Shown here: positions 47,887 through 64,000 of the stretch, piece by piece
Layout: each line of letters begins with the position of its first letter
How positions within the stretch are numbered: the first letter of the stretch is position 1
From: an uncultured bacterium
Lineage (GTDB): Bacteria > Methylomirabilota > Methylomirabilia > Rokubacteriales > DASRDR01
NCBI GenBank assembly: GCA_964463175.1
Contig: CAYXBJ010000092.1
Location: 70,931 to 134,930, forward strand
Length of the DNA: 64,000 nucleotides
Reading direction: 5' to 3'
The notes under the pieces: generated by a model
Told to the model about the DNA's origin: nothing
Database searches by the model: none
The model's input: only the letters and a program-made list of their open reading frames with translations
Position numbers and translations under genes: made by a program

Positions 47887-48073
47887 GCCGACGCGCACCG
47901 CGCCGGGGCCGCACGCGGGGTCTGATGGACGGCGGTCCGATCCATGCTCGACTCCCCTCGCGTGCCATCGTCCGTGTCGGGCTGGCAGCGCGCAATTACG
48001 TCGGAGGTAGCGCGGCCGCCCGCGTTGACACCCGTCGGCCGGCGTGGCACGGTCGCCGCGGAGGGCGGCGGCC

Positions 48074-49339
48074 ATGGACGAGATCGCGCGCGATCGATTC
48101 GGCAATCCCCACGCGCCGGGCTTCCCGTACGCCCGGGGGACCCTCGTCACCAGCACCCAGGATGACCTCCGGAAGCTCCGCCATGCCTGGGCGCTCATCG
48201 AAGCGCGCGTCCGGAAGGACGGGGCCGAGGCCGTCTTCAATTTCTCCGGGCTCGAGCGCAGTCTGACCGCCGCGCCGAGCGAGGTCGCGTTTCTCGACGA
48301 CGAGCTCGCCCCCGCGCTCTACGCGGACCGGGTCCGGGCCCTCGCGCTCGATCACCTCGGGGGGCGGCCCGAGCGCCACGACGTCATGCTCTTCAACCGG
48401 ATGACGGCCGCGACGCTCGCCACCCACCTGGTCCTCGTCCGGCCCGGAGACACCGTCATCGGCGTCTCCCCGAGCTACACGCACCCCACCGTCGTCCGGA
48501 GCGCCGCGCTGGCCGGTGCCCGCTTCGTCGACACGGTGGGGGCGGACGCCTTCGCCGCCGCGCTCGCCGGCGAGGAGCGCGTCGGTCTCGTCGTGCTGAC
48601 CCGCCTGGCGGTGAGCTACGACGTGCTCCCCACGGAGGCCCTCGGGCGCGTGGTCGCCCTCGCGCGGGCCCGGCGCGTGCCGGTCTATGTCGACGACGCC
48701 GGCGGCGCGGGGGTGGGCCCGGCGGTGCTCGGCCAGCCGCGGATGCTGGAGCTCGGGGTCGATGTGGGCGCGACCGGCCTCGACAAGTACGGCACGGTGG
48801 GCCCGCGCCTCGGGCTCCTCGCCGGCGAGACGAGCCTGGTGGCGCAGATCCGCGCGCGGGCTTTCGAGCTCGGGCTCGAGGCGCGGCCGATGCTCTACCC
48901 CGCCGTCCTCCGCTCGCTCGAGCAGTACACGCCCGAGCGGGTCCGCGACCTGGTCGCGACGACGATGGGGGTGGCCGACGCCCTCCAGGAGCGGCTCGGG
49001 ACCCGTGTGCACCGCACGCCGGTCACCGCCCAGCTCCGGGGCGAGGACATCCTCGAGGCCGCCCGCGAGCGCGCGGGCGTGCGCGAGCGGACGCTCGTGC
49101 CCATCGAGGCGACCGCGGCCCTGGCGATGATCCTGCTCGAGGACCACGGGATTCTCACGGTCCACTTCGCCGGCATGCCGCCGGGGACGTCGGCGATGCT
49201 CTTCAAGTTCGTCCCGCCCGAGACCCTCGCCCGCTTCGGCGGAGCCGCGGTGCTCGCCCGCGCCGTCGACGGCGCGCTCGACCGGCTCGCAGCCCTGATC
49301 GGCTCGCCGGACGCGGTGCGCGCGCTGCTCTACGGCTAG
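48074..49339 (+). CDS. hypothetical protein, possibly a PLP-dependent transferase-like fold (SelA-like)
   Basis: Internal ATG (MDEIARDRF). Globular composition. GLDKYGTVGP segment resembles the PLP-Lys region of SelA-type enzymes. Weak. Confidence 0.4.
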   Translation: MDEIARDRFGNPHAPGFPYARGTLVTSTQDDLRKLRHAWALIEARVRKDGAEAVFNFSGLERSLTAAPSEVAFLDDELAPALYADRVRALALDHLGGRPERHDVMLFNRMTAATLATHLVLVRPGDTVIGVSPSYTHPTVVRSAALAGARFVDTVGADAFAAALAGEERVGLVVLTRLAVSYDVLPTEALGRVVALARARRVPVYVDDAGGAGVGPAVLGQPRMLELGVDVGATGLDKYGTVGPRLGLLAGETSLVAQIRARAFELGLEARPMLYPAVLRSLEQYTPERVRDLVATTMGVADALQERLGTRVHRTPVTAQLRGEDILEAARERAGVRERTLVPIEATAALAMILLEDHGILTVHFAGMPPGTSAMLFKFVPPETLARFGGAAVLARAVDGALDRLAALIGSPDAVRALLYG

Positions 49340-52042: not shown

Positions 52043-53004
52043 CGCCCGCCGGTGGGAATCGCGCCGGAAGTCCGGCGCGCGCCGGCCCGCGAGGGGCTGG
52101 GCCCGGCCACGGGCCGCGGCACCCGGGCCAGGCCCTCGCGAAAGCCCACCGGCCGGTACCCGAGATCGGCGCGCGCCTCGGACCAGTCGGGCAGGGCGTC
52201 CTGCGTCAGTCCCGCGATCACGTGCGCGGTGAACGGCGCCCGCCGCGTGACCGCGCCCATCGCCGCGGCCGCCGCCCGGCAGAGCCAGACCGGCAGGGGA
52301 ACGAAGGGCTTGTGGATCCCCTCGTGCTCGAGCGCAAGCCGTCCCATCTGCCAGAGCGTGATCGGCTCGCCGCCGCAGAACGGATAGATCTTGCCGTAGG
52401 CCTTCGGATTCCCGGGAATGGCCAGGAACCCCCGCATCAAGTCGTCCACGTGCACCGGGTTCTTCCGCGCCCGGCCGTGTCCGACGAAGATCCCGACCGG
52501 CCACCGCTTCAGGAACTCCACGAACGTCCGGTATTCCTCGCCGCCGTTCTCGTTGTACGCGAGGGTCGGGCGCACGATCGTCCAGCGCATGGCCGTCTGC
52601 TCGCGCACGATGCGCTCCGCCTCGCGCTTGGACGCGTTGTAAGGCGTCGTCCACGGATACGTGACGGAGATGGACGAGCAGAGGATGAAGTGCGTGACCC
52701 CGGCCGCGATCGACGCGTCCACCAGGTTGCGCGTGCCGTCGGCATTCACGCGCTGGAATACATCGGCACGGTCGTTCAGCAGCACGGCCGCCAGGTGGAA
52801 CACGGTCTGAACGCCCTGGCACACGCTCGGGAGGCTCGGGGCGTCCGTCACGCTGCCGTAGACGATCTCGCAGTCGAGGCCGGCCAGGCGCGAGATGTAC
52901 GGGTCGCCCGGCAGGGTCAGCACGCGGACGCGGTGCCCGGCCCTCACCAGGCCGTGCACCAGGCGGGAGCCGATCACACCTGCGCCACCGGTTACCAGAA
53001 TCAT
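52039..53004 (-). CDS. NAD-dependent epimerase/dehydratase family protein (SDR)
   Basis: 321 aa. Rossmann motif ILVTGGAGVIGSRL and catalytic YxxxK (YNASK). Confidence 0.85.
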   Translation of the reverse strand: MILVTGGAGVIGSRLVHGLVRAGHRVRVLTLPGDPYISRLAGLDCEIVYGSVTDAPSLPSVCQGVQTVFHLAAVLLNDRADVFQRVNADGTRNLVDASIAAGVTHFILCSSISVTYPWTTPYNASKREAERIVREQTAMRWTIVRPTLAYNENGGEEYRTFVEFLKRWPVGIFVGHGRARKNPVHVDDLMRGFLAIPGNPKAYGKIYPFCGGEPITLWQMGRLALEHEGIHKPFVPLPVWLCRAAAAAMGAVTRRAPFTAHVIAGLTQDALPDWSEARADLGYRPVGFREGLARVPRPVAGPSPSRAGARRTSGAIPTGGR

Positions 53005-53032: not shown

Positions 53033-54925
53033 TCACCAGAGCTGCTGCTTCTCGAGAAACACCATGCACCACAGCTCGAGGATGACGAGGGACAGCACCT
53101 GCTTGAGGTAGAGGAACTCCCCGCTCGCCATCTGCGCCACCAGTGCGGCCACGGCGTCGGGGTCGAACCAGCCGCGGCGGCGGACGCGCGCGGGATCCAG
53201 AGTCAGGCGAATCAGCTCGCGGATCTCGGAGTGCTCGTGGAAGTACTCGAGCGGCAGGTAAAAGGGGTTCTTGCTGCGCCGCACGTTGTCCGCCGGAAGC
53301 CACTTGCGTCCGAGCTCGCGCTCGATCCACTTGTCGCGCAGCCCGCGCACCTTGTCGCGGGTCGGCAGGCGGAAGGCCTGCTCGATCAGGCGGTGATCGA
53401 GGAACGGACAGCGGAGCTCCAGGGAGAACGCCATCGTGTTCTTGTCCTGGCGCAGCAGCAGGTTGTCCTGGAGCCAGTCGTCGTACTGCAGGCGCAGGAG
53501 CCGGTCGAGGAACGGGCCGCCGCCGCGCGGGCGGTGCAGCCAGCTCCACCCCGCCTGGGCACGGAGCGCCGGCGCGTACAGGCGGGCGCGCTCCCCGGGA
53601 TCGAACAGCGCGCGCAGCGTCACGTAGCTCTGGGCCAGATCGCGGTCGTAGTAGCCGCGCAGGTAGTCCACGGTCTTGGCCTTGCCGCGCTCGCCCAGGT
53701 AGGCGGGGTAGACGAAGAACCGGTCGAGCAGGCCCACCGGCGCCGCCTGGAGCAGGGCGGCGGCGCCGCGGTTGAGCGCGCGCGGCACGAGGCGCCGGTA
53801 GCGTTCCGTCCACAGGATGACCTTGTGGAAGGAGTAGCCGGCGTAGCTCTCGTCCGCGCCCTCGCCGGAGAGGACGACCTTCACGTGGCTGGAGGTCTCC
53901 CGGGCCAGCTGCCAGTAGGCAAGGACCAGGGCGTCGCCGATGGGGCGCTCCAGGTGGTAGATCGCCCGCGGCAGCTCCGCGAAGTGCTTCGGCTCGAGGT
54001 AAATCTCGTGGTGCTCCGTACCCAGGCGCTCGGCGAGAGCGGACGCCTCGCCCGTCTCGTCGATCGGCGAGCGGAAGCCGATCGAGAAGGTCTGGAGCTT
54101 CGGGGTGAAGCGCCGGGCGGCCGCCACGACCAGGCTCGAGTCGATGCCGCCCGAGAGGTACGCGCCGACCGGGACGTCGCTGCGCAGCGCGATGCGCACG
54201 GCATCCAGGAAGATATGCTCGAAGGCCTCGAGGTTCTCGCCGTCGCTCCGCCACGGCCCGTCGCAGACGGGCACGTCCCAGTAGCGACGGACGTCGAGCG
54301 CGCCGGCCCGAAACCGCAGGCAGTGGCCGGCGGGCAGCACGTGGACGCCGGCCAGGAGCGTCTCCGGCTGCGGGACGTAGCGGAGCGCCAGGTAGCCGTC
54401 CAGCGCCGGGAGGTTGGGCCGCCGCGCGACCTCGTCCGACTCGAGGAGCGCCTTGATCTCCGAAGCGAAGACCAGCCGGCCGCTGGCGTGATGATAGTAG
54501 AGCGGCTTCTGGCCGGCGCGGTCGCGCGCGAGGAACAGCTCCTCGCGGCGACGGTCGAGGATCGCGAAGGCGAACATCCCGTTCAGCCGCTCCAGGCAAT
54601 CCGGGCCCCACGCCTGGTACGCGTGGACGATCACCTCGGTGTCGGAGCGGGTGCGCAAGCGGTGGCCGCGGCTCTCGAGCTCGTCGCGCAGCTCGACGTA
54701 GTTGTAGATCTCGCCGTTGGAGATCACGGCCAGCGACTCGTCCTCGTTGAAGATGGGCTGCCCGCCGCCCTCGAGATCGATGATGGAGAGCCGGCGCATG
54801 CCAATCGAGACCCGGCCCTCGTGGAAGTACCCCTCGCCGTCCGGGCCGCGATGGCGCAGCACGGCGCCCATGCGGCGGAGGAGATCGGGCTGCTCGAATC
54901 CGGCGAATCCGAAGATCCCGCACAT
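53033..54925 (-). CDS. asnB: asparagine synthase (glutamine-hydrolysing) family amidotransferase
   Basis: 630 aa. N-terminal nucleophile MCGIFG and PP-loop SGGIDSS. In a glycan locus it may amidate a sugar acid rather than make Asn. Confidence 0.9.
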   Translation of the reverse strand: MCGIFGFAGFEQPDLLRRMGAVLRHRGPDGEGYFHEGRVSIGMRRLSIIDLEGGGQPIFNEDESLAVISNGEIYNYVELRDELESRGHRLRTRSDTEVIVHAYQAWGPDCLERLNGMFAFAILDRRREELFLARDRAGQKPLYYHHASGRLVFASEIKALLESDEVARRPNLPALDGYLALRYVPQPETLLAGVHVLPAGHCLRFRAGALDVRRYWDVPVCDGPWRSDGENLEAFEHIFLDAVRIALRSDVPVGAYLSGGIDSSLVVAAARRFTPKLQTFSIGFRSPIDETGEASALAERLGTEHHEIYLEPKHFAELPRAIYHLERPIGDALVLAYWQLARETSSHVKVVLSGEGADESYAGYSFHKVILWTERYRRLVPRALNRGAAALLQAAPVGLLDRFFVYPAYLGERGKAKTVDYLRGYYDRDLAQSYVTLRALFDPGERARLYAPALRAQAGWSWLHRPRGGGPFLDRLLRLQYDDWLQDNLLLRQDKNTMAFSLELRCPFLDHRLIEQAFRLPTRDKVRGLRDKWIERELGRKWLPADNVRRSKNPFYLPLEYFHEHSEIRELIRLTLDPARVRRRGWFDPDAVAALVAQMASGEFLYLKQVLSLVILELWCMVFLEKQQLW

Positions 54926-55170: not shown

Positions 55171-56289
55171 GTGCGCATCCTCTACTGGTCCCCGGTCTTC
55201 TGGCCGCAGATCGGCGGGGTCGAGGTAATTGCCGCGCAATTCATCCCGGCCATGCAAGCCCGCGGTCACGAGTTCACCGTGATCGCGGGACTCGGCAGCC
55301 TGGAAGCGCCCTCCGTGACGTGGTATCGCGGGGCGGCCGTGCACCGGCTGCCGATCTGGACGGCAATTGCGGCCCGGGACCTCGCGCAGATCGCCACCGT
55401 ACAGCGCGCCGTCGCGGCCATCAAGCGCGAGCTCTCGCCCGAGGTGATCCATCTGAACTACTACCCCCCGAGCGTCTTCTTCCACACGAGAACGGCGCGG
55501 ATCGCACCGGCTCCCCTGCTGCTGGCGCTTCGCGGCGCGCCGCCGGGCGAGGCCGCCGCCGGGGATACACTCGTGCACCGCGCGTTCGACGCGGCCGCCT
55601 GGACCACGGCCGTGTCGCGATCGGTCCTCGACGCCGCCCGCCAGGCCGCGCCGCGGATTGGCGGTCGATCCTCCGTGATCTACAATGGCCTGCCGATGCC
55701 GCCCGACACGCCGCGAGCCCTCCCGATGGATCCGCCCCGTCTCCTCTGCCTCGGGCGCCTGGTCCGGGAAAAGGGCTTCGACCTCGCGGTGGCCGCCTTC
55801 GGTCAGCTCGCGGAGCGCTTTCCGCGGCTCGCGCTGGTGATCGCCGGCGATGGGCCGGAGCGAGCCGGACTCGCCCGGCAAGTAGCCGGGCTCGGGCTCG
55901 CCCATCGTGTCACCTTCTCGGGATGGGTCGCCCCGAATGAGGTCCCCTCGCTCATCAACACGACGACGATCGTGCTCGTGCCGTCCCGCTGGGAAGGACT
56001 GCCGGGCGTCGCAATCCAGGCCGGGCAGCTCGCGCGACCCGTGGTCGGCGCGCGAATCTGGGGCCTCCCCGAGATCGTCCTCGACGGCCAGACCGGTCTT
56101 CTGACGGATCCCGACGACTACGTGGGACTGGCCGCCGCGATCGCGACCTTGCTCGATCAGCCGTCGCTGGCGGCGCGCATGGGTCAGGCCGCTCGCCGAC
56201 GGGTCGAGGGGCTCTTCGGATGGGACCGCTATCTCGATGCCTACGACGCGCTGTATCGCTCTCTCGGCCAGGAGGCACGCGCATGCTGA
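55171..56289 (+). CDS. glycosyltransferase family 4 (GT-B, group 1)
   Basis: 372 aa. N-terminal (M/V)RILYWSPVFWPQIGGVE. C-terminal EGLP.....A...G.PVV motif (WEGLPGVAIQAGQLARPVVGARIWGLPE). Confidence 0.85.
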   Translation: MRILYWSPVFWPQIGGVEVIAAQFIPAMQARGHEFTVIAGLGSLEAPSVTWYRGAAVHRLPIWTAIAARDLAQIATVQRAVAAIKRELSPEVIHLNYYPPSVFFHTRTARIAPAPLLLALRGAPPGEAAAGDTLVHRAFDAAAWTTAVSRSVLDAARQAAPRIGGRSSVIYNGLPMPPDTPRALPMDPPRLLCLGRLVREKGFDLAVAAFGQLAERFPRLALVIAGDGPERAGLARQVAGLGLAHRVTFSGWVAPNEVPSLINTTTIVLVPSRWEGLPGVAIQAGQLARPVVGARIWGLPEIVLDGQTGLLTDPDDYVGLAAAIATLLDQPSLAARMGQAARRRVEGLFGWDRYLDAYDALYRSLGQEARAC

Positions 56290-56756
56290 GCGGAGACGCC
56301 CGGTTTCGCCCCAATGTCGAGGAGGTCGCCGCGGACATCCTCGACGGCGAAGCCATCATGATCAACCTCTCGACGGGCATGTACTACAGCATGGACCCGG
56401 CCGGCACGGCGGTCTGGTCGCTCCTCGCCGCAGGACGCAGCGTCGAGGAGATCGGCACTGCGCTGACCCGACGCTTCGACGTGGCCCGCGAGCAGGCCGA
56501 CGCCGATGTCCGGCTACTCCTGGCGAAGCTCGTCGAGGAGAATCTGGTCCGACCGGCCGATCGGGAGCCCTCGGGCTCGGCCGATCCCGACACGCGGGAG
56601 CCTGCTGGTGAGCCGAAGCGCCCCTACACCGCACCCCAGCTGGAGATCTACCGGGATGTCGGCCACCTGGTCGCCCTCGACCCGCCCATGCCCGGCCTGA
56701 AGGACCTTCCCTGGCAGGAGCCCGGCGACGATCCGTTCCCGCGTCGGCCTGCCTGA
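56283..56756 (+). CDS. PqqD-family protein (RiPP recognition element-like) with Pro/acidic C-terminal extension
   Basis: ATG overlaps the GT4 stop (ATGCTGA). Residues 10-95 (VEEVAADILDGEAIMINLSTGMYYSMDPAGTAVWSLLAAGRSVEEIGTALTRRFDV...VRLLLAKLVEENLV) fit the PqqD/RRE winged-helix pattern. Followed by a ~60-aa extension. Confidence 0.75.
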   Translation: MLSGDARFRPNVEEVAADILDGEAIMINLSTGMYYSMDPAGTAVWSLLAAGRSVEEIGTALTRRFDVAREQADADVRLLLAKLVEENLVRPADREPSGSADPDTREPAGEPKRPYTAPQLEIYRDVGHLVALDPPMPGLKDLPWQEPGDDPFPRRPA

Positions 56757-56826
56757 CACGCGCCCGGGCCCCTCCGCTCGGATCGCCGCCGGCGTCCCGT
56801 CGCGCGATCACGCCGCGCTCGGCGCG

Positions 56827-57849
56827 GTGCGCGCCGCGTTCGACCAGGCGCGTCGCGCACATCCGGCGGCGCTTCACGAGACCTTCTACCGGTTCGGGGG
56901 GCAGCTGGTCCGACTGCGGGCCGTCGGACCGGCGCTGGCCGCGGCCGTCGACCGCCCGTTCGCCCACTTGGCCGCGGCCGGCGACAACCTCGTGCCGCGG
57001 CTGACGATCGACCTCTGGGACGGGGCCGCGACTGCAGTGCCTCCTCCGCCAGACGGCCCCGCGGCGGAGCGCGCCTGGAGAGTTGCGGGCGGGGCCGCCA
57101 CGACCTTCGCGCGCGGTCGGGTCTTTCGCTACCAACATGGGGCCGGGGTGACCTGGCTGGATCGGCACAGCCGGCACATGGTCGGATGGCGGGCCGCGGC
57201 GACGAGCCTTCCCATCCACGAGCGCTCCAAGCCCTTGCCGCTGCTGCTCTCGATTTGGTACCACGATCGCGACATCCACGTGGTCCACGCGGCGCTGGTC
57301 GCGCGGGACGGGCAGGGCCTCCTCATCGGAGGGCGCAGCGGCAGTGGCAAAACGACCGCCGCCCTCGCCGCGCTCCTCGGCGGCTTCGACTATCTGGGGG
57401 ACGACCAGTCGGGCCTGGAGGTCCGTCCCGACGGTTCGTTCATCGGCCACAGCCTCTTCAGCGGCGCGCGGATCACGACCGACCATCTCGAGCGCTTCCC
57501 CGGACTGCGGCCGTACGCGATCTCGGGCGATGCGCGGCCGGACAAGGCGCTCCTGTTCATCCCCGAGATCCGGCCGGACCGGTGCGCGGCGCACGCGGCC
57601 ATCCGGGCGATCGCCGTGCCGACGCTCGGAAACGGCCCCCGCACCGAGGTCCGGCACGCTCGCAAGAGCGAGGCCCTGTGCCGGCTGGCCCCGACCTCCC
57701 TGTTCACGCCGTTCGGCCCCGGGGCCGGCGGCTTCGGCGCGCTCTCGCGGCTGGTCGACGCGGTGCCGAGTTACTGGCTCGAGCTCGGCACCGACCCCAG
57801 CGACATAGCCCGGGCGATAGCCGCGATCCTCGGGGGGGCCCGGACGTGA
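56827..57849 (+). CDS. HprK-related P-loop kinase
   Basis: 340 aa. Walker A GGRSGSGKTT embedded in an HPr kinase C-terminal-domain-like context (LLIGGRSGSGKTTAALA...GDDQ). Stop overlaps the GT2 start (GTGA). Confidence 0.7.
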   Translation: MRAAFDQARRAHPAALHETFYRFGGQLVRLRAVGPALAAAVDRPFAHLAAAGDNLVPRLTIDLWDGAATAVPPPPDGPAAERAWRVAGGAATTFARGRVFRYQHGAGVTWLDRHSRHMVGWRAAATSLPIHERSKPLPLLLSIWYHDRDIHVVHAALVARDGQGLLIGGRSGSGKTTAALAALLGGFDYLGDDQSGLEVRPDGSFIGHSLFSGARITTDHLERFPGLRPYAISGDARPDKALLFIPEIRPDRCAAHAAIRAIAVPTLGNGPRTEVRHARKSEALCRLAPTSLFTPFGPGAGGFGALSRLVDAVPSYWLELGTDPSDIARAIAAILGGART

Positions 57850-58574
57850 CCCCGGCGCCCCTGGTGAGCTGCGTGATCCCGGTCTTCAACGGCGAGCGAT
57901 TCCTGCGCGACGCCATCGGGAGCGTCCTGGCCCAGACGTACCCGGCGGTGGAACTCCTGGTCGTGGACGACGGCTCGACGGACGGCACCCGCACCGCGGT
58001 CGCGTCGTTCGGAGCCCGCGTGCGCTACCTGTGGCAACTCAATGCCGGGCCGGCACCGGCGCGCAACGCTGGCATCGCTGCCGCCACCGGCGCGTTCGTC
58101 TCCTTCATCGACTCCGACGACTGCTGGGAGCCGGAAAAGCTCGCGCGCCAGATCGCGCGGTTCCAGGCCCGTCCCGAGCTCGATCTCTGCGTCACGCACA
58201 TCCAGAACTTCTGGATGCCCGAGGTCGCGGACGAGGAGCGGCGACTGGCGGGGAGCCGGCAGGCTGGGCCACTGCCGGGCTACTCGAGCGTCACTCTCGT
58301 CGCCCGCCGCGCGCTCTTCGAGGCGATCGGCGCGTTCGACGTCACCCTCAAGCACGGCGACGACACGGACTGGTTCGCGCGGGCCGAGCGGCACGGCGCG
58401 GTCTCCGAGCTGCTCCCCGACGTGCTCGTGCGCCGGCGGCTCCACGCGAACAACCGCAGCCGGCAGTGGGCGGGGCGCAGTCGCGCCGAGTACCTCGCGC
58501 TCCTGCGCACGCTCGTGGGCCAGCGCCACCCCGCGCAGAGTCCGGCCGCCGCGCCCCGCTCGGAGCCCGTGTAG
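57846..58574 (+). CDS. glycosyltransferase family 2
   Basis: 242 aa. VSCVIPVFNGERFL, DDGSTDGT and FIDSDD (DxD) motifs. Confidence 0.85.
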   Translation: MTPAPLVSCVIPVFNGERFLRDAIGSVLAQTYPAVELLVVDDGSTDGTRTAVASFGARVRYLWQLNAGPAPARNAGIAAATGAFVSFIDSDDCWEPEKLARQIARFQARPELDLCVTHIQNFWMPEVADEERRLAGSRQAGPLPGYSSVTLVARRALFEAIGAFDVTLKHGDDTDWFARAERHGAVSELLPDVLVRRRLHANNRSRQWAGRSRAEYLALLRTLVGQRHPAQSPAAAPRSEPV

Positions 58575-58599
58575 TCCCCGTCGTTCGCCGCCATTCGGG

Positions 58600-59736
58600 A
58601 TGCGCGTCCTCCTCTGGTCCGAGCTCTTCTGGCCTTATCTCGGCGGGGTCGAGATCCTGGCGAGCCGATTCGTGCGCGCGATGCAGGCCCGGGGTCACGC
58701 GCTCGCCGTCATCACGTCCCATGCCGAGCTCGACCTCCCGGACGAGGACGAGCGCGCCGGCGCCCGGGTGTGGCGATTGCCGTTTCGGGCAGCGCTCGCC
58801 GCGCGCGAGCTCGGCCGGGTCCGACTCGTCCGGCAGCGCGCGGGGGAGCTGGTGCGGACGTTCGATCCGGACGTGATTCACCTGTACGCGCTCGGGTCCA
58901 GCGCCGTGTTCGTCTCCCAGGCGCGGGGCGATCCGCCCCGCCCCCTCGTGCTGACGCTGCACGGGGAGATCCTTCGCGAGTCGGCCGGCGGGCCCGACAC
59001 GGTCGTGCAGAAGATCCTGCGCACGGCCAGCTGGACGGCGGGCGTCTCGATGGCGGTCCTGCAGCAGGCTCAACAGCAAGCGCCGGAGCTGGTCGGTCGC
59101 TCGTCCGTCGTCTACAACGCGCTCGACATGCCCGCGCCCCCGGCGGAGCCACTGCCGCGAGAGCCCCGCTTGCTCTGCCTGGGCCGCCTCGTTCCCGACA
59201 AGGGTTTCGATGTCGCGCTGGCCGCCTTCGCCGAGCTCTTGCCCCGATACCCACGCGCGCGGTTGCTCGTGGCCGGGGACGGGCCCCTGCGTGAGCCGCT
59301 GGCGCGGCGCGCGGCGGATCTGGGCGTGAGCGGCGCCGTGGACTTCCTGGGCTGGGTCGCGCCGGACGGCGTGGCCGATCTCCTGAACCGGGCCACGATC
59401 GTCATCATGCCGTCCCGCCGCGAAGGACTCCCGCTCGTGGCGATCCAGGCGGCCCAGATGGCCCGCCCCGTCGTGGGGAGTCGCGCCGGGGGGCTGGCCG
59501 AGATCGTGATCCACGACGAGACGGGCCTACTGGTGGCGCCCGGTGATGTCCACGCATTGGTCGACGCCCTCACGGCGCTACTGACTCAGCCGGAACGCGC
59601 GGACCGGCTGGGGCGGGCCGCCCGCGCGCGAGTCGGGAGCGTCTTCGGATGGGAGCGCCATCTGGAGGCGTACGAGGAGATCTATGGGCGCGCCGCGCGG
59701 CATGCCCGGAATGCTCCGACCGGAGCGGGAGGGTGA
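58600..59736 (+). CDS. glycosyltransferase family 4
   Basis: Internal ATG (MRVLLWSELFWPYLGGVE). C-terminal REGLPLVAIQAAQMARPVVGSRAGGLAE motif. Confidence 0.85.
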   Translation: MRVLLWSELFWPYLGGVEILASRFVRAMQARGHALAVITSHAELDLPDEDERAGARVWRLPFRAALAARELGRVRLVRQRAGELVRTFDPDVIHLYALGSSAVFVSQARGDPPRPLVLTLHGEILRESAGGPDTVVQKILRTASWTAGVSMAVLQQAQQQAPELVGRSSVVYNALDMPAPPAEPLPREPRLLCLGRLVPDKGFDVALAAFAELLPRYPRARLLVAGDGPLREPLARRAADLGVSGAVDFLGWVAPDGVADLLNRATIVIMPSRREGLPLVAIQAAQMARPVVGSRAGGLAEIVIHDETGLLVAPGDVHALVDALTALLTQPERADRLGRAARARVGSVFGWERHLEAYEEIYGRAARHARNAPTGAGG

Positions 59737-60866
59737 GGATCCTGTTCTGGTCCGACACGTTCTGGCCCGTCATCGGCGGCGTCGAGGTTCTCGGGAGCCG
59801 ATTGGTACAGGCGCTCCGGGCCAGAGGCCACGACCTCATAATCCTCGCCCGGCGCGATCGCGACGATCTCCCCGACGAGGACCGGTACGCCGACGTCCCA
59901 CTCTACCGGTTTCCCCTCCGCGCGGCGCTGCAGTCGCGCGATCTGGGTCTCGTGATGTCGCTGCGCCGGCGGGTCGCGGCCCTGATCCACGACTTCGACC
60001 CGCAGATTGGGCACATCTATCACTCGGGCCCCGGCGTGTACTTCTACCTGCAGGCGCCCGCGACGCGCCGTGTGCCACTGCTCATGACGCTTCACCAGAC
60101 GTATGTCCCGGAGCTTCTCGAGCCCGACTCGCTCCGCGGCCGGCTCCTTCGTCGCGCGCAGTGGGTCACCGCGTGCTCGGACTCCGTCCTGCAGTGCACG
60201 CGACGGCAGCTCCCGGAGATCAGCGCCCGGTCCTCGGTCGTGCTCAACAGTCTCAACATGCCCGGCACGCTGCCGACCGCGCTCCCCTCCGACCCGCCTC
60301 GTCTCCTGTGCGTGGGCCGTCTCCTGCCCCAGAAAGGCTTCGATCTCGCGCTTCGCGCGTGGGCGCGCCTGCACGGTCAATTCCCGGGCGCACGGCTCCT
60401 CATCGCCGGGGACGGGCCGGCACGGGCCGAGCTCCAACAGGACGCGGCCGACCTCGGCCTCCAGTCCGTGGAGTTCCTCGGCTGGGTAGCCCCCGACGCC
60501 GTCCCGGACCTCATCAACACGGCCACGCTCGTCATCATGCCGTCGCGCATCGAGCCACTCGGGCTCGTGGCCGTTCAGGCCGCCCAGATGGCCCGGCCGA
60601 TCGTGGCGACTCGAGTGGACGGTTTACCCGAAGTCGTGATCCATGGACAGACGGGCTTGCTCGTCGAGCCGGACGATGTCGACGGCCTGGCCCAGGCGAT
60701 CCGCCATCTTCTCGAGCACCCCTCGATCGCCACCGCCATGGGCCAGGCGGCGCGGCGGCACGCCGAAGAGGTCCTCGAGTGGAACGCCCACGTCGGCGCG
60801 TACGACCGTCTCTACCGGCAGCTGGCCGGCGTGGCGTGCCGGCATGCCGCGGGCGCCCCGCCGTGA
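59733..60866 (+). CDS. glycosyltransferase family 4
   Basis: GTG start overlapping the upstream stop (GTGA). VRILFWSDTFWPVIGGVE...IEPLGLVAVQAAQMARPIVATRVDGLPE. Paralogue of the two other GT4s. Confidence 0.85.
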   Translation: MRILFWSDTFWPVIGGVEVLGSRLVQALRARGHDLIILARRDRDDLPDEDRYADVPLYRFPLRAALQSRDLGLVMSLRRRVAALIHDFDPQIGHIYHSGPGVYFYLQAPATRRVPLLMTLHQTYVPELLEPDSLRGRLLRRAQWVTACSDSVLQCTRRQLPEISARSSVVLNSLNMPGTLPTALPSDPPRLLCVGRLLPQKGFDLALRAWARLHGQFPGARLLIAGDGPARAELQQDAADLGLQSVEFLGWVAPDAVPDLINTATLVIMPSRIEPLGLVAVQAAQMARPIVATRVDGLPEVVIHGQTGLLVEPDDVDGLAQAIRHLLEHPSIATAMGQAARRHAEEVLEWNAHVGAYDRLYRQLAGVACRHAAGAPP

Positions 60867-60974: not shown

Positions 60975-62789
60975 ATGCCCGGCCTCCATCTCGTGGTGGA
61001 CTGGCGCGGCGGCATCGCCCGCCGGCGCCCCGAGATTCTCGCCGCGCTGGATGGTGTCCGGCACTCGGACACCTACGGGACGAGCATCCTGCTCGAGGAC
61101 GACTTCCTGCTGCTCGCGCAGTCTGGCTATGCGGAGTATCCCGTCGCGTGCCACGAGGTGAACGGCGTCCGCGTGATCGTCGAAGGGCGGCTCTACGGGC
61201 TGGCCGCGTCGGAGCGCGCGGCGCAACTCGCCGCGCTGGTCGCCGGGGTCTTCGACGACCCCGACGCCCGGTGGGAGCGCGTACGGGATTGGCTCCTGGC
61301 CGTCGACGGGGACTTCGTGGCCGTCCTGCTGCAGCCCGCGACGGGCGAGATCGCGATCGTGAACGACATGTTTGGCCGGCTCCCTCTCTATCTGCAGCGC
61401 TCCGCGGCGGGCCTGGTCGTGTCCCGTGAGTTCCGATTTCTGACGCGCCTCGCCGACCGGATCGAGTTCGATCGCCTGGCCCTGGCGCAGTCCCTCCTCC
61501 TGGGTTTCCCGCTGGGCGAGCGCACGCTGGTCGAGCGTGTTGAGCGTCTTCCGCCCGGGACGCTTGGTCGGTGCAACCCGCGTCGGCGGGAGGTGCGGCT
61601 GGAGCGCCTGCACCACCTGAGCCTCGAGGCCAAGCCCTTCGCGAGTGTGCCGCTTCCGGAGCACGCCGCGAATCTGGTCGAGCGGCTCTCCGCAGCATGC
61701 GCCGCGCGCCGGGACGCCGGCGCGGTGGTGTTGTCGCTCAGCGGCGGCTTCGACGCGAGAGCCGTCGGGGCCTGCCTCGTGCGCCATGGCATTCCCTTCC
61801 AGTGCGCCACGTTCGTCGATCATGTGGGCAACGCCGACGCCGACGCGCCGATCGCCCGGCAGATCGCGGCCCTCTTCGAGGCCCCGTGGGACCTGATCCG
61901 GCTGGGTCCCCCGCGTCCTCGCGACGTGCTGGCGCTCCTCCGGATGAAGAGCGGCATGAATCCCCTGGGGATGGCCTTCTTGCTACCGTTCCTGGCGGCC
62001 GTCCGGGACCACGCGCCGAGGCCCGCGCAGCTCGTCACCGGAGAGATGGGTACGTTCACGCTGACGGATCCGAGCCCGCCGCGCGTCCCCGCCAGCGCGA
62101 GCGACCTGGTCAGTCAGGTCATGGCGGAGAATCACCGGTTTTCGCTGGCCGAGGCCGCGGCCCTCACGCGCATCGCGCCCGGGGACCTAGCCGACATGCT
62201 CGCGCAGCACGTCCTGCGCTATCCGGAAGACGACTACGGCCAAAAGTACGCGCACTTCCGGATGTGCGAGCGCGCCTTCAACTGGCACGGGGAGGCGGAA
62301 GACCGAAATCGCTGCTACGTCTGGACGACCAGTCCCTTCTACGCGCCGCGCTTCTTCCAGGCGGCCATTGGCGGGCCGGATGCGCACAAGACTCGCTACC
62401 GACTCTACCGGGAGTTGCTCGTCCGCCTGTCCCCCACCGTCGCCGCCATTCCGCACGCGGGCCTGGGTGTGGCGGTCACGGCGCCCTCCTTCGAGACGGC
62501 GAGCCGGGTCGCCGCGCTGATCGGCGCCGATTCCCGCGCCCGCGAGGCCCTGGTCCATCGGCTCGCACCCGCCGACGTCTACGGACCGGATTCGACCGTG
62601 GTGCGGTGCCTCCGGCAGCAGGTCGCGACGTGCGAGCCGCTTGCCGACTATCTGTCGCCCTCGGTCCTCGCGCGCGTGGTGGACGCGAGCGCCCACCACA
62701 CCCGGGCGCAGCTCGACCAACTCTTCACGATCACGTCGGCCATCGAGGACCTCGCGACGGGCTCGACCGTGCTGGAGCGGCGGCTCTGA
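60975..62789 (+). CDS. asparagine synthetase-like adenylating enzyme lacking the glutaminase nucleophile (lasso-cyclase-like / AsnB C-domain homologue)
   Basis: 604 aa. Begins MPGLHL with no Cys2. Degenerate N-terminal domain. PP-loop LSLSGGFDARAVGACL. Extensive AsnB-like C-terminal domain. Confidence 0.75.
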   Translation: MPGLHLVVDWRGGIARRRPEILAALDGVRHSDTYGTSILLEDDFLLLAQSGYAEYPVACHEVNGVRVIVEGRLYGLAASERAAQLAALVAGVFDDPDARWERVRDWLLAVDGDFVAVLLQPATGEIAIVNDMFGRLPLYLQRSAAGLVVSREFRFLTRLADRIEFDRLALAQSLLLGFPLGERTLVERVERLPPGTLGRCNPRRREVRLERLHHLSLEAKPFASVPLPEHAANLVERLSAACAARRDAGAVVLSLSGGFDARAVGACLVRHGIPFQCATFVDHVGNADADAPIARQIAALFEAPWDLIRLGPPRPRDVLALLRMKSGMNPLGMAFLLPFLAAVRDHAPRPAQLVTGEMGTFTLTDPSPPRVPASASDLVSQVMAENHRFSLAEAAALTRIAPGDLADMLAQHVLRYPEDDYGQKYAHFRMCERAFNWHGEAEDRNRCYVWTTSPFYAPRFFQAAIGGPDAHKTRYRLYRELLVRLSPTVAAIPHAGLGVAVTAPSFETASRVAALIGADSRAREALVHRLAPADVYGPDSTVVRCLRQQVATCEPLADYLSPSVLARVVDASAHHTRAQLDQLFTITSAIEDLATGSTVLERRL

Positions 62790-64000
62790 GCGTGTTCCCG
62801 GAATCCGGGCCGGCGCGGATCGCGCCCGCGCCGGCGGCGTCCCCAGTCGCCCTGCCCCTGGCCGGGGTGCTCCGCCTGCTACTCCCCACCGCCACGGAGT
62901 CTGCGCTGTTGCGCGCGTTGCTGTGGCCGGCCGACCGCGGCGCCGGCGCCTGGGCGTCGTGGCGGACCGAGGTCGGCGGGCTCCGCGCGGCCTTGGAACG
63001 CAATGCGCCCGGCCTGAACGGGCTCCTGCCCCTCCTCGGGCACGCGCTTCGGGCCAGCGGCGTGACCCTGAGCGACGACGACCGGGCCTGCCTGCGAAGC
63101 GCGCAGCTGTGGGAATCCGCGCGCTATGCGGCCTACCGGGCCATCCTCCTCGACGCGCTGGCGAGGCTCGCCGTCCATCGCATTCCCACGATCCTCCTCG
63201 ACGGCGCGGCGCTCGCCCAGACGGTCTACGAGACGCCCGTGCTCCGTCATTGCCATGCCATTGCACTGTGGGTACCGGACGCTCAGCTCGCGACCGCGGC
63301 CACACTGCTGATCGAGGGCGGGCTTCGTCCGGACGGACTCCCGGGCGGCACGACGCCGGACCTCGTCGCGCTGCACCACGAGTCCGGCCTTCCGATCCGC
63401 CTGGGCTCCGGCCTGTTGCGACCCGTGTTCCCCGCGTCAGCCGGGGACGAGCTCTGGGATCGGAGCGGGGCCCTCGACCTGTCGGGGACGGGCACGCGCA
63501 TCCTGGGCGACGCCGATGCCCTGCTCCACGTCTGCGGCCGCGCGGCCACGGTCTCGCGCGAGAGCCCCCTGGTGTGGGCCGCTGACGCCTGGTTCATCCT
63601 GAGGAGGCGCGCCGCGCTGGACTGGCACGGATTCCTGGAAGGGGTGCGGCGGGCCAACCTCGCCCTCCCGCTCGCCGCCATGCTGGCGTATCTCGCGGGC
63701 GACCTGGAGGCGCCCGTTCCCGACCATGTCCTGACGGCGTTGGAGCATGCCGCGCGCCGGACGGACGGCCTTGGGCGTCAGATCGCGGTGGCGGGCGTGC
63801 ACCGCGCCGGACGAGCCGGTCTGCGCGCGCTGGCCCGGGGCACCTCTTGCGGGCGCGACCGGCTGACGCTGGCTCGCTGGGTGCTGCTCCCGTCTCCCAA
63901 GTACGCTCGATGCGTCGGCGGGGCGCGAAGCACGGGAGGGGTGCTGCGATACTACGTCGCGCGGGCGCTCCGATACGCGCGGCGTCGCTGGACAGCGTCC
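62790..64000 (+). CDS. nucleotidyltransferase-family protein (PF14907-like), 3' truncated by the window end
   Basis: Open frame from the GTG at 62790 to the window edge; absent from the track because it has no stop. LLLP...ESALLRALLW...W..W, IPTILLDGAALAQTVYETPVLRHCHAIALWV and ALHHESG pattern of the uncharacterised nucleotidyltransferase family that co-occurs with PqqD/HprK-like genes. Confidence 0.55.

What the first reader, a model, noticed from the sequence alone, without database searches (positions are those of the whole stretch)
60975..62789. AsnB homologue missing its Cys nucleophile and carrying a variant PP-loop (SGGFDA)
The protein starts MPGLHL, so it lacks the Cys2 of the Ntn glutaminase. 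Its N-terminal ~200 aa are degenerate. A PP-loop ATP-pyrophosphatase motif (LSLSGGFDARAVG) and a large AsnB-type C-domain are retained. This is the architecture of lasso macrolactam synthetases and other carboxylate-adenylating amide-forming enzymes. It contrasts with the bona fide glutamine-dependent AsnB at 53033-54925 in the same locus.
Basis: seen in the sequence. Interest (0 to 1): 0.6.

Follow-up and report, generated by a model that had tools for sequence, protein, structure and literature searches.

The report
Glutaminase-dead AsnB relative in glycan cassette
This gene encodes a well-folded relative of asparagine synthetase that can no longer use glutamine but keeps its ATP-binding loop; it belongs to a large unstudied family found in sugar-polymer gene clusters, and here it sits in a conserved cassette of glycosyltransferases and lasso-peptide-type helper proteins, so its chemistry is predictable but its substrate is unknown.

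Summary
ORF 60975-62789 (+) is a real, selected gene for a 604-aa two-domain AsnB-fold protein (AF2 pLDDT 93.5). It starts MPGLHL and lacks the whole glutaminase catalytic set. Its PP-loop reads SGGFDA; the final Ala is unique among 112 relatives, which otherwise have SGGxDS.

The N-domain is not degenerate. It is a conserved Ntn-type domain with its own invariant residues.

The protein belongs to an uncharacterised family (about 974 50%-identity clusters). RefSeq calls it "asparagine synthase-related protein". It occurs in bacteria, haloarchaea and Nitrososphaeraceae, almost always in glycosyltransferase-rich polysaccharide loci. It fails every curated AsnB and lasso-cyclase model cut-off.

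Its closest subclade sits in a conserved cassette: GT4, PqqD, HprK-like kinase, GT2, GT4, GT4, AsnB-like, NTP_transf_5. There is no leader peptidase, ABC exporter or separate precursor gene. The PqqD carries a highly conserved C-terminal tail with a lasso-leader-like YxxPxL motif.

Best reading: a glutamine-independent, ATP-dependent, carboxylate-adenylating amide-forming tailoring enzyme for the cassette's glycoconjugate. A canonical lasso cyclase is unlikely, and a pseudoenzyme is not excluded. It is a new variant of a known kind, of moderate interest.

The parts
60975..62789 (+). AsnB-like ORF, 604 aa, of the 'MPG...SGGxDS...EDRNR' family (RefSeq: asparagine synthase-related protein)
   Evidence: ORF; homologues; alignment A1; AF2 pLDDT 93.5; Foldseek to the AsnB fold; dN/dS 0.28
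60975..60992 (+). N-terminus MPGLHL. Pro2 occupies the position of the Ntn nucleophile Cys, and the first beta-strand starts at residue 3 as in Ntn amidotransferases.
   Evidence: Pro 95, Leu 7, Val 7 of 112; Gly3 in 110 of 112
61182..61196 (+). EGRLY, aligned to AsnB N74-G75-E76-I-Y. The oxyanion Asn is replaced by a family-conserved Glu70, Gly71 is kept, and Glu76 is replaced by a variable basic or aromatic residue.
61740..61757 (+). PP-loop SGGFDA (residues 256-261). Ser256, Gly257 and Gly258 are invariant and Asp260 is present in 108 of 112. Ala261 is unique; the other 111 have Ser.
62037..62057 (+). TGEMGTF, aligned to AsnB S346-G-E348-G-S-D351-E. The Glu is kept. The position of Asp351 is Thr here; the family majority motif is TGDGGDK.
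62298..62390 (+). Family-specific C-domain motifs EDRNR (442-446) and invariant Lys472. Their correspondence to the AsnB D/N-K-x-x-M-A and Lys420/429 region is inferred only.
62792..64000 (+). NTP_transf_5 (PF14907) gene. GTG start lies 2 nt after the AsnB-like stop, and the gene runs off the window (full length 420 aa on contig L085). The metal-binding DxD motif reads AIA at 63245-63274.
56283..56756 (+). PqqD-family protein, 157 aa: RRE domain, variable linker, then a conserved C-terminal tail (nt about 56622-56723) PYxxPxLxIYRDxGxLxALDPPxPGLxDxPW.
   Evidence: Pfam PqqD E 6e-17; NCBIfam lasso PqqD chaperone 52 bits (cut-off 80); alignments; AF2
56827..57849 (+). HprK-related / ScmC-like kinase homologue, with an intact P-loop GRSGSGKT at 57331-57354
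55171..56289 (+). GT4 glycosyltransferase, first gene of the cassette
57873..58574 (+). GT2 glycosyltransferase
58600..59736 (+). GT4 glycosyltransferase
59733..60866 (+). GT4 glycosyltransferase, directly upstream of the AsnB-like gene
53033..54925 (-). Genuine glutamine-dependent AsnB-type amidotransferase (MCG start). Its best family match is eps_aminotran_1 (WbpS/WbqG type). It is divergently transcribed from the cassette.
   Evidence: PMC7468200

Best explanation
The ORF encodes a functional, cytoplasmic, two-domain AsnB-superfamily enzyme. Its Ntn domain cannot hydrolyse glutamine and has been kept as a conserved, remodelled domain.

It most likely binds ATP at the PP-loop, adenylates a carboxylate, and lets an amine that does not come from glutamine attack the acyl-adenylate to give an amide. 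That amine could be free ammonia, an amino compound, or an amine within the substrate.

It acts as a tailoring enzyme on a glycoconjugate under assembly. In the wider family this would be the repeat unit of a Wzx/Wzy-type polysaccharide. In this window it would be the product of the conserved eight-gene cassette GT4-PqqD-HprK-like-GT2-GT4-GT4-AsnB-like-NTP_transf_5. My preferred target is a carboxylate on the sugar part (a sugar acid), by analogy with the Cys-containing WbpS/WbqG uronamide formers.

Shown: the fold, the loss of the glutaminase set, the retained PP-loop, purifying selection, family size and synteny.

Inferred: ATP use, adenylation, amide formation, and the identity of the substrate and the amine.
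For: - Two-domain AsnB fold with high confidence. The nearest structures are all acyl-adenylate-forming amide synthetases.
- hhalign of the family against the genuine-AsnB alignment gives 98.8% probability, E 5e-17, over 477 columns.
- PP-loop Ser-Gly-Gly is invariant, Asp is present in 108 of 112, and [ST]-G-[DE]-x-G is kept. The window protein matches 32 of 33 positions that are at least 95% conserved.
- dN/dS is 0.28.
- The glutaminase set is gone: Cys1 to Pro, Asn74 to Glu, Glu76 variable, and no counterpart for Arg49 or Asp98.
- The family has about 974 50%-identity clusters at E<=1e-30 and at least 324 species-level loci in bacteria and archaea.
- Neighbours are overwhelmingly GT4, GT2, Wzx, Wzy, Wzz, Poly_export, priming transferase, WecG and DegT.
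- The cassette is conserved across phyla, and the stop of this gene and the start of NTP_transf_5 are 2 nt apart.
- In sister PqqD-tail cassettes a genuine MCG-type AsnB fills the AsnB-type slot (10 loci versus 2 with the MPG type). That points to a carboxylate-to-amide tailoring step.
- WbpS/WbqG of the eps_aminotran_1 type convert sugar uronic acids to uronamides (PMC7468200).
Against: - No biochemical data exist for any member.
- No UDP-sugar 6-dehydrogenase motif was found within 10 kb of any of 80 family loci, so a sugar-acid substrate is not supported by context.
- This protein has Ala instead of the PP-loop Ser and Thr at the AsnB Asp351 position. Some cassette relatives have Gln, Thr or Ala at the Glu348 position.
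- AsnB Lys449 has no conserved counterpart in the hhalign alignment.
- The tight association of the subclade with a peptide-binding PqqD points to a peptide rather than a sugar.
- I had no model coordinates, so the ATP site and the N-domain pocket could not be inspected.
Confidence: 0.4

Rival explanations
1. Peptide-directed, lasso-C-like enzyme acting on the fused PqqD tail. The PqqD protein would be an RRE fused to its own leader-like and core-like peptide. The AsnB-like enzyme would adenylate one of the invariant Asp residues of the tail (Asp125, Asp133, or Asp/Glu141) and form an amide or isopeptide bond.
For: - PqqD is adjacent to or near the AsnB-like gene in 9 of 11 subclade contexts.
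- The best NCBIfam hits of this PqqD are lasso B1 chaperones.
- All 105 tails examined carry Y-x-x-P-x-L followed by G-x3-ALDPPxP, with Leu, Val or Ile at the position that would be -2.
- YxxPxL at -17 to -12 and Ile/Val(-2) are described for lasso leaders (PMC10368454).
- AF2 places residues 111-120 at pLDDT about 91 and predicts a strand at 120-123 (block pLDDT about 67). The rest of the tail is flexible.
- HprK-like and NTP_transf_5 genes are lasso-cluster accessories (PMC6993621).
- This reading explains why there is no separate precursor gene.
Against: - About 75 of 80 family loci have no PqqD, HprK-like or NTP_transf_5 gene.
- There is no leader peptidase to free an N-terminal amine, and residue +1 would be Leu or Asp, not Gly/Ala/Ser/Cys.
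- Most PqqD-tail cassettes carry a glutamine-dependent MCG-type AsnB or no AsnB-type gene nearby, so the MPG type is an optional accessory.
- The family is no closer to lasso cyclase models than to AsnB models.
- The docking of the tail on the RRE is read from secondary structure and pLDDT only, not from coordinates.
Confidence: 0.2
2. Non-catalytic pseudoenzyme or scaffold. The protein keeps the AsnB fold and perhaps nucleotide binding, but serves as a structural or regulatory partner in the glycosylation cassette.
For: - Ser261Ala in the PP-loop is unique among 112 relatives.
- Thr sits at the AsnB Asp351 position, and Gln, Thr or Ala sits at the Glu348 position in some cassette relatives, such as TGQLGQT in L004.
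- No conserved counterpart of Lys449 was found.
- The neighbouring NTP_transf_5 has lost its DxD (AIA here, DIA in the 76% relative). That relative has also lost the kinase gene, which suggests erosion of the module in this lineage.
Against: - 32 of 33 family-invariant positions are intact.
- dN/dS is 0.28.
- PP-loop Ser-Gly-Gly-x-Asp is fully conserved across bacteria and archaea.
- Position 348 is Tyr in active beta-lactam synthetase (own knowledge), so variation there need not inactivate the enzyme.
- The family-specific motifs LLRMKxGMNPLGM, EDRNR and Lys472 are strongly conserved, as expected of a working active site.
Confidence: 0.15
3. Canonical lasso peptide macrolactam synthetase (C protein) for a lasso peptide whose precursor and B2 peptidase are encoded elsewhere.
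For: - It is a Cys-less AsnB homologue next to B1-like, K-like and N-like genes.
- Leader- and B-independent lasso formation, and a B-less cluster with a glycosyltransferase, have been reported (PMC6993621).
- One syntenic locus (L003 1525-1698) has a small ORF with a lasso-like junction...VTT|SPVGYGTDD.
Against: - NF033535 scores 12 bits (cut-off 525) and NF033561 gives no hit for this protein.
- No B2, no ABC exporter and no conserved precursor were found in any syntenic locus.
- The L003 peptide has no homologue in any other locus.
- The family is widespread in archaeal and bacterial polysaccharide loci.
- The cassette contains four glycosyltransferases instead.
Confidence: 0.04
4. Ordinary glutamine-hydrolysing asparagine synthase, as the JGI annotation of the homologues says.
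For: Only the automatic name given by one source.
Against: - No Cys nucleophile and no Arg49, Asn74, Glu76 or Asp98 equivalents.
- TIGR01536 scores 37 bits against a cut-off of 267, and PF00733 scores 13.6 against 21.
- A genuine AsnB-type amidotransferase (MCG start, passes TIGR01536) lies 6 kb away.
Confidence: 0.01

Closest known systems
Lasso peptide cyclases (C proteins such as McjC and PsmC; NCBIfam NF033535 and NF033561)
   Same: They are AsnB-superfamily proteins without glutaminase function but with a PP-loop. They occur in clusters with a PqqD-type B1, an HprK-type kinase and an NTP_transf_5 'N' gene (PMC6993621). The expected chemistry is carboxylate adenylation followed by amide formation.
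   Different: The window protein scores far below the model cut-offs. There is no precursor gene, B2 peptidase or exporter. The wider family lies in polysaccharide loci of bacteria and archaea. The cassette is dominated by four glycosyltransferases.
WbpS / WbqG / eps_aminotran_1 (TIGR03108) uronamide-forming amidotransferases
   Same: They are AsnB-type enzymes encoded in glycan loci that convert a sugar carboxylate to an amide (PMC7468200). The window's other AsnB (53033-54925) is of this general type and flanks the cassette.
   Different: Those enzymes keep the Cys nucleophile and the glutamine site. The target scores 26 bits against a cut-off of 817 and cannot use glutamine.
Beta-lactam synthetase (1JGT) and carbapenam synthetase CarA (1Q15)
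   Same: They are Cys-less AsnB homologues with a vestigial N-domain and are among the best structural matches (Foldseek E about 1e-15 to 1e-16, TM 0.5-0.6). They adenylate a carboxylate and form an intramolecular amide.
   Different: Sequence identity is 14-17%. There is no clavulanate or carbapenem context. The catalytic Tyr/Glu/Lys set could not be mapped. The N-domain here is strongly conserved rather than vestigial.
TsnB9 hydroxyamidotransferase (7YLZ)
   Same: It is the best structural match (E 2e-17, TM 0.62-0.69). It is an AsnB-type enzyme that couples a non-aspartate carboxylate to a nitrogen nucleophile.
   Different: The TsnB9 chain starts MCG, so the nucleophile position is kept. 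Sequence identity is only 15%, and it belongs to a secondary-metabolite context.
E. coli AsnB (1CT9) and human ASNS
   Same: The overall two-domain fold, the PP-loop, the RDxxGxKPLY-like and SGEG-like motifs, and the domain order are shared.
   Different: All residues that bind and hydrolyse glutamine are replaced. The C-terminal half has diverged, with family-specific motifs.

Membership tests
AsnB superfamily (Ntn-type N-domain plus PP-loop synthetase domain) | Two-domain AsnB fold | tested here: met
   AF2 pLDDT 93.5. Foldseek matches to 7ylz, 1jgt, 1q15, 6gq3 and 1ct9 over 570-660 columns. hhalign 98.8% against the genuine-AsnB alignment.
AsnB superfamily (Ntn-type N-domain plus PP-loop synthetase domain) | PP-loop SGGxDS after a beta-strand | tested here: met
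   SGGFDA at 256-261, in a strand 250-254, loop, helix 259-270 arrangement. The last Ser is Ala in this protein only.
Glutamine-hydrolysing asparagine synthase (TIGR01536 / PF00733 + PF13537) | N-terminal Cys nucleophile after Met removal | tested here: not met
   The N-terminus is MPG. Position 2 is Pro, Leu or Val in 109 of 112 relatives.
Glutamine-hydrolysing asparagine synthase (TIGR01536 / PF00733 + PF13537) | Glutamine-site residues Arg49, Asn74, Gly75, Glu76 and Asp98 (E. coli numbering) | tested here: not met
   Only Gly75 (Gly71 here) is kept. Asn74 is Glu70, Glu76 is Arg72 (variable in the family), and Arg49 and Asp98 have no conserved counterpart.
Glutamine-hydrolysing asparagine synthase (TIGR01536 / PF00733 + PF13537) | Reaches the curated model cut-offs | tested here: not met
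   TIGR01536 37 bits (cut-off 267); PF00733 13.6 (21); PF13537 17.2 (25).
Lasso peptide cyclase (C protein) | Reaches the NF033535 or NF033561 cut-off | tested here: not met
   NF033535 scores 12 bits (cut-off 525) and NF033561 gives no hit for this protein. The best E-values among 40 relatives are 2.6e-14 and 4e-14, no better than for the AsnB models.
Lasso peptide cyclase (C protein) | Adjacent precursor gene with a leader (YxxPxL...T/I-x) and a core with Gly/Ala/Ser/Cys at position 1 and Asp/Glu at 7-9 | tested here: not met
   No plausible small ORF in the window cassette or its longer contigs. One unconserved candidate exists in L003 only. A leader-like YxxPxL motif exists, but fused to the PqqD protein and followed by Leu-Asp-Pro-Pro.
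Lasso peptide cyclase (C protein) | B2 (transglutaminase-like) leader peptidase in the cluster | tested here: not met
   No PF13471-type gene in the precomputed Pfam of any context, nor in my scans.
Lasso peptide cyclase (C protein) | B1 / PqqD-type RRE in the cluster | tested here: met
   PqqD at 56283-56756: Pfam E 6e-17, and best NCBIfam hit lasso PqqD chaperone at 52 bits, below the cut-off of 80.
WbpS/WbqG-type glycan amidotransferase (TIGR03108 eps_aminotran_1) | Intact glutaminase domain and model cut-off | tested here: not met
   26 bits against a cut-off of 817, and no Cys.
WbpS/WbqG-type glycan amidotransferase (TIGR03108 eps_aminotran_1) | Location in a glycan biosynthesis locus | tested here: met
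   Four glycosyltransferases in the operon. The wider family sits in Wzx/Wzy loci.
Beta-lactam synthetase / carbapenam synthetase | Catalytic Tyr348-Glu382 dyad and Lys443 (beta-LS numbering) | not testable with these tools
   Sequence alignments cover only residues 124-297. No model coordinates or residue-level structural alignment were available.
Uncharacterised 'asparagine synthase-related protein' family (MPG...SGGxDS...EDRNR...K) | Full-length match and the family-invariant residues | tested here: met
   Profile score 743 bits over residues 1-602. 32 of 33 positions conserved at 95% or more are present. RefSeq name.
Catalytically competent PP-loop adenylating enzyme | ATP binding and acyl-adenylate formation | not testable with these tools
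   This needs an ATP-PPi exchange or AMP formation assay. The sequence shows a retained loop, but with Ser261Ala and Thr at the AsnB Asp351 position.

The most novel reading that the evidence does not exclude
The AsnB-like gene would be an accessory of an undescribed lasso-derived system. This system is a GT-rich cassette built around a PqqD protein that carries its own leader-like (YxxPxL) and highly conserved core-like tail in cis; there are at least 389 such loci in the metagenome collection.

The tail or its Ser-rich C-terminus would be phosphorylated by the HprK-like kinase, primed by NTP_transf_5 and extended by four glycosyltransferases. That would give a peptide- or protein-anchored glycan, or a glycosylated peptide-derived small molecule. 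The AsnB-type enzyme would install an amide or isopeptide on it, with the MPG type working without glutamine and the MCG type working with it.
Probability: 0.2. Interest if true: 0.8.

Novelty: new variant of a known kind. Interest (0 to 1): 0.55.

Why it matters
Cys-less AsnB homologues are a recurring source of unusual amide-bond chemistry, such as beta-lactams, carbapenams and lasso rings.

This one defines a family of roughly a thousand 50%-identity clusters. It spans bacteria, haloarchaea and ammonia-oxidising archaea, has no characterised member, and is mis-named 'glutamine-hydrolysing asparagine synthase' in automatic annotation.

If it tailors glycans, it could be an unrecognised route to amide-modified sugars in capsules, exopolysaccharides and archaeal surface glycans. 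If it acts on the fused PqqD tail, it would link RiPP-type peptide recognition to glycan assembly, and the cassette would be a new class of glycoconjugate pathway common in soil metagenomes.

At the least, the result corrects the annotation and gives a defined eight-gene unit for heterologous expression.

Tried and rejected
- Single-sequence search against PDB sequences gave no hit. A profile search gave only core PP-loop and N-domain matches.
- Search for a precursor peptide. Small-ORF clustering across six syntenic loci was swamped by high-GC noise. Filtered intergenic ORFs gave nothing in the window or its longer contigs. The one lasso-like ORF (L003 1525-1698) has no homologue anywhere.
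- N-terminal Pro as a catalytic residue (as in tautomerases or Fpg). Set aside because 14 of 112 relatives have Leu or Val there.
- Obligate pairing with the neighbouring genuine AsnB. Rejected because only a few of 80 family loci have a second AsnB-type gene within 10 kb.
- Decaying pseudogene. Rejected because of dN/dS 0.28, an intact frame, 32 of 33 invariant positions, and identical protein on three independent contigs.
- Uronic-acid context. No UDP-sugar 6-dehydrogenase motif near any family locus. This weakens, but does not exclude, a sugar-acid substrate.
- Anti-phage defence. No PADLOC hit for any of the eight cassette proteins.
- A specific relationship of the MPG family to the cassette-specific MCG-type AsnB clade. 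Not seen: 42-58 bits, no better than other AsnBs.
- Literature searches for a Cys-less AsnB in polysaccharide loci, 'HprK-related kinase', PqqD plus asparagine synthase plus exopolysaccharide, and PF14907 found nothing relevant.
Full report
**1. The observation**

The ORF 60975-62789 (+) is listed mechanically, and its ATG is the first start codon after the preceding in-frame stop. It translates to 604 aa beginning MPGLHL and contains LSLSGGFDARAVG, with the PP-loop SGGFDA at residues 256-261 (nt 61740-61757).

It is a real gene:
- A database search finds 45 proteins with E <= 0.001, most of them about 600 aa and covering the full length.
- A profile search of 1.84 billion cluster representatives finds 974 proteins at E <= 1e-30.
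- A scan of species-representative genomes finds at least 324 loci. They come from many bacterial phyla, cultured haloarchaea (Natrinema, Halorubrum, Halorussus and others), Nitrososphaeraceae and Lamprocystis purpurea.
- Against a 76%-identical homologue, dN/dS is 0.28.
- RefSeq calls members 'asparagine synthase-related protein'. JGI's automatic name is 'asparagine synthase (glutamine-hydrolysing)'.

**2. Fold and family placement**

AlphaFold2 with a 40-sequence alignment gives pLDDT 93.5 and pTM 0.92. Foldseek against the PDB returns only AsnB-fold enzymes over both domains. These are TsnB9 (7ylz, E 2e-17, TM up to 0.69), beta-lactam synthetase (1jgt and related entries), carbapenam synthetase (1q15), human ASNS and E. 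coli AsnB (1ct9), all at 12-17% identity.

At the sequence level the protein is far below every curated cut-off:
- PF00733: 13.6 bits (cut-off 21)
- PF13537: 17.2 bits (cut-off 25)
- TIGR01536: 37 bits (cut-off 267)
- TIGR03108: 26 bits (cut-off 817)
- Lasso cyclase NF033535: 12 bits (cut-off 525)

All 40 aligned relatives hit the AsnB models weakly, and 39 and 37 of them hit the two lasso-cyclase models about equally weakly, so the family is roughly equidistant from both. Profile-profile comparison with an alignment of genuine AsnBs gives 98.8% probability over 477 columns.

**3. The glutaminase half**

I chained three alignments: family to human ASNS, family to the window's genuine AsnB, and that AsnB to E. 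coli AsnB. The result for the E. coli catalytic set is:
- Cys1 corresponds to Pro2.
- Asn74 corresponds to Glu70.
- Gly75 corresponds to Gly71.
- Glu76 corresponds to Arg72.
- Arg49 and Asp98 have no conserved counterpart.

In 112 relatives, position 2 is Pro in 95, Leu in 7 and Val in 7. Gly3 is present in 110. Glu70 is Glu in 107 and Asp in 5. Position 72 is variable.

The N-domain is nevertheless not degenerate. It is modelled at pLDDT of about 94 or more, with a strand starting at residue 3 as in Ntn amidotransferases. It keeps the structural motifs of class-II amidotransferase domains: D111-G112-D-F, D131...G-R135-L136-P137-x-Y139, and S150-R151. These are invariant or nearly so across bacteria and archaea. 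It is a remodelled, selected domain whose role (binding, regulation or interface) I could not determine.

**4. The synthetase half**

Ser256, Gly257 and Gly258 are invariant, and Asp260 is present in 108 of 112. The last loop residue is Ser in 111 of 112; only this lineage has Ala (GCG versus TCG). The same Ala occurs in three independent metagenome contigs. The 'variant PP-loop' is therefore private to this organism, not a family feature.

The AsnB motif S346-G-E348-G-S-D351-E corresponds to T355-G-E357-M-G-T360-F:
- The two glycines are invariant.
- The family majority is TGDGGDK.
- This protein keeps the Glu but has Thr at the Asp351 position.
- Some cassette relatives have TGQLGQT, TGTLGTF or TGAGGSL.

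AsnB Lys449 has no conserved counterpart in the hhalign alignment. Family-specific motifs (LLRMK325xGMNPLGM, E-D443-R-N-R446, Lys472) are strongly conserved, but their mapping to AsnB residues is only inferred. The window protein matches 32 of the 33 positions conserved at 95% or more.

Catalytic competence is likely but not certain.

**5. Context in the window**

Positions 1-48 kb hold housekeeping genes, including MetRS, trigger factor, ClpP/ClpX, TatC, BipA and ABC transporters.

From about 49.4 kb there is a glycan-type region. On the minus strand it holds:
- a 1138-aa protein with an ILEI domain,
- an NAD-dependent epimerase,
- a genuine MCG-type AsnB (53033-54925). Its best NCBIfam match is eps_aminotran_1, and it passes TIGR01536.

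On the plus strand it holds GT4, PqqD, an HprK-related/ScmC-like protein, GT2, GT4, GT4, the AsnB-like gene, and an NTP_transf_5 gene. The GTG start of NTP_transf_5 lies 2 nt after the AsnB-like stop. Longer contigs of the same organism show that the operon ends with NTP_transf_5 (420 aa), followed by convergent, unrelated genes.

**6. Context of relatives**

Most family loci are ordinary polysaccharide loci. They contain GT4, GT2, Wzx, Wzy, Wzz/tyrosine kinase, Poly_export, priming transferase, WecG and DegT genes, and sometimes CapK_C or PGA_cap. They have no PqqD, HprK-like or NTP_transf_5 gene within 10 kb.

The closest subclade (SGGFDS loop, 42% identity or more) is different. The order GT4-PqqD-HprK-like-GT2-GT4-(GT4)-AsnB-like, with NTP_transf_5 next to it, recurs in the window, L003, L004, L005, L008, L088 and L156, and in scattered form in L006. 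L089 has PqqD directly after the AsnB-like gene. A JGI contig has PqqD plus an APH/ScmC-like gene.

Two variants (L006 and L091) add a small radical-SAM/SPASM protein and a polytopic membrane protein next to the AsnB-like gene.

None of these loci has a B2 peptidase, an ABC exporter or a conserved small precursor gene. The only lasso-like small ORF (L003 1525-1698) is unique to that locus.

**7. The PqqD partner**

The PqqD protein is 157 aa rather than about 90. Its best NCBIfam matches are the lasso B1 chaperone models (52 and 46 bits, below their cut-offs).

Alignments of 7, 34 and 105 homologues show a PqqD domain, a variable Pro/Ala/Ser-rich linker, and a tail of about 35 residues that is better conserved than the domain itself: PYxxPxLxIYRDxGxLxALDPPxPGLxDxPWxEP. 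Most tails are followed by a short acidic, Ser-rich end.
- All 105 tails contain Y-x-x-P-x-L.
- The residue that would be -2, if Tyr is -17, is Leu (85), Val (18) or Ile (2).

A YxxPxL motif at -17 to -12, and Ile/Val at -2, are described for lasso leader peptides that work with B1 and the HprK-type kinase (PMC10368454).

AF2 models the domain confidently. It places residues 111-120 at pLDDT of about 91 and predicts a strand at 120-123 (block pLDDT about 67), and leaves the rest of the tail flexible. This is consistent with a leader-like segment bound in cis, but I could not inspect contacts.

The protein family is large: at least 289 proteins and 389 metagenome loci.

**8. Reverse association**

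Around 80 PqqD-tail loci, the constant neighbours are GT2 and GT4 genes. HprK-like, NTP_transf_5, rSAM/SPASM and the membrane protein are frequent.

An AsnB-type gene is present in 12 of these loci. In 10 it is a genuine MCG-type enzyme of a cassette-specific clade (65-98% identical to each other, about 32% to the window's AsnB). It often lies directly downstream of PqqD. Only 2 loci have the MPG type.

The MPG family is not specifically related to that MCG clade. So the MPG protein is an optional accessory of the cassette. The slot it occupies is elsewhere filled by an enzyme whose chemistry is glutamine-dependent conversion of a carboxylate to an amide.

**9. Signs of erosion in this lineage**

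The NTP_transf_5 metal-binding DxD reads DLD in L003, L005 and L008. The equivalent Asp134/Asp136 are essential in PsmN (PMC6993621). Here it reads AIA, and it reads DIA in the 76% relative L088, which also lacks the kinase gene.

The window PqqD tail ends ...PFPRRPA, without the usual Ser-rich end. Together with Ser261Ala in the AsnB-like protein, this suggests the phospho-glycosylation branch may be decaying here. The kinase P-loop, however, is intact.

**10. Interpretation**

The common denominator of the whole MPG family is glycosyltransferase-rich loci. The common denominator of the subclade is the PqqD cassette.

The most economical reading is a glutamine-independent, ATP-dependent, carboxylate-adenylating amide synthetase that tailors a glycoconjugate. 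By analogy with WbpS/WbqG (PMC7468200) I favour a sugar carboxylate, at about 0.4. The lack of nearby UDP-sugar dehydrogenases weakens this.

A peptide-directed role on the invariant Asp residues of the PqqD tail is the main rival, at about 0.2. A pseudoenzyme is possible, at about 0.15. A canonical lasso cyclase is unlikely (about 0.04), and a glutamine-dependent asparagine synthase is excluded for practical purposes.

**11. Novelty and score**

Cys-less AsnB homologues are a known kind. This family is a distinct, uncharacterised variant with an unusual, conserved context. I rate interest at 0.55.

The more novel element is the cassette, with a B1-type PqqD that carries a leader-like and core-like tail in cis. 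I found no description of this in the searchable literature.

Noticed in passing
window 56283-56756 (tail at about 56622-56723); alignments A3 and A4; loci L092-L171: The cassette's PqqD protein carries a C-terminal tail (PYxxPxLxIYRDxGxLxALDPPxPGLxDxPW) that is more conserved than the RRE domain itself. The tail includes a lasso-leader-like YxxPxL motif. AF2 places residues 111-120 at pLDDT about 91 and predicts a strand at 120-123 (block pLDDT about 67). This may be an RRE fused to its own substrate peptide. There are at least 289 proteins and 389 metagenome loci of this type.
   Followed up: partly
window 62792-64000 (motif at 63245-63274); L085 10237-11499; L088 4974-6140: The NTP_transf_5 gene is translationally coupled to the target. 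It has lost the family's metal-binding DxD: it reads AIA here and DIA in the 76% relative, versus DLD in L003, L005 and L008. It is probably catalytically dead in this lineage. The relative L088 also lacks the HprK-like gene.
   Followed up: partly
L116, L127, L141, L148, L149, L151, L168 (PqqD-tail loci): A cassette-specific clade of genuine MCG-type AsnB enzymes, about 620-634 aa with motif SGDGGDE, 65-98% identical to each other. It often lies directly downstream of the PqqD-tail gene. It is only about 32% identical to the window's own AsnB.
   Followed up: partly
L091 5414-6337 and 8340-9701; L006 7949-8860 and 11811-13193; also L093, L150, L158: A small radical-SAM/SPASM protein (68% identical between L091 and L006) and a polytopic membrane protein of about 455 aa (57% identical) flank the AsnB-like gene in a variant of the cassette. 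L006 also has an Stf0 sulfotransferase and a 2OG-Fe(II) oxygenase.
   Followed up: partly
L003 1525-1698 (+): A 57-aa ORF (42 aa from an internal ATG) upstream of NTP_transf_5 with a lasso-like junction, ...ADVTT|SPVGYGTDDATIDGAPA. It has no homologue in any other fetched locus.
   Followed up: yes
window 53033-54925 (-): A genuine glutamine-dependent AsnB-type amidotransferase whose best NCBIfam match is eps_aminotran_1 (460 bits, below the cut-off of 817). It is probably a WbpS/WbqG-like glycan amidotransferase rather than a housekeeping asparagine synthase.
   Followed up: partly
window 49409-52822 (-): An ORF of 1138 aa whose only recognisable domain is a C-terminal ILEI domain (PF15711, E 3e-15). 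Its GC3 (0.82) is lower than that of neighbouring genes, so the true start is uncertain.
   Followed up: no
window 48044-49336 (+): An MJ0158-like PLP-dependent enzyme homologue (TIGR03576, 177 bits, below the cut-off of 304) at the edge of the glycan region.
   Followed up: no
window 55171-60866: All three GT4 genes also match PF20706 (GT4 in conflict systems), but always below their general GT4 hits. No cassette protein matches PADLOC defence models.
   Followed up: yes
window 1-48000: The rest of the window is ordinary high-GC (72.8%) chromosome. It holds MetRS, PSP1, thymidylate kinase, MoaC, a molybdate/tungstate-type ABC transporter, an amidohydrolase, cyclophilin, BipA, TatC, ClpX, ClpP, trigger factor, OmpA-like, a methyltransferase, SMP-30 lactonase, a PALP enzyme and an amidase.
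   Followed up: partly
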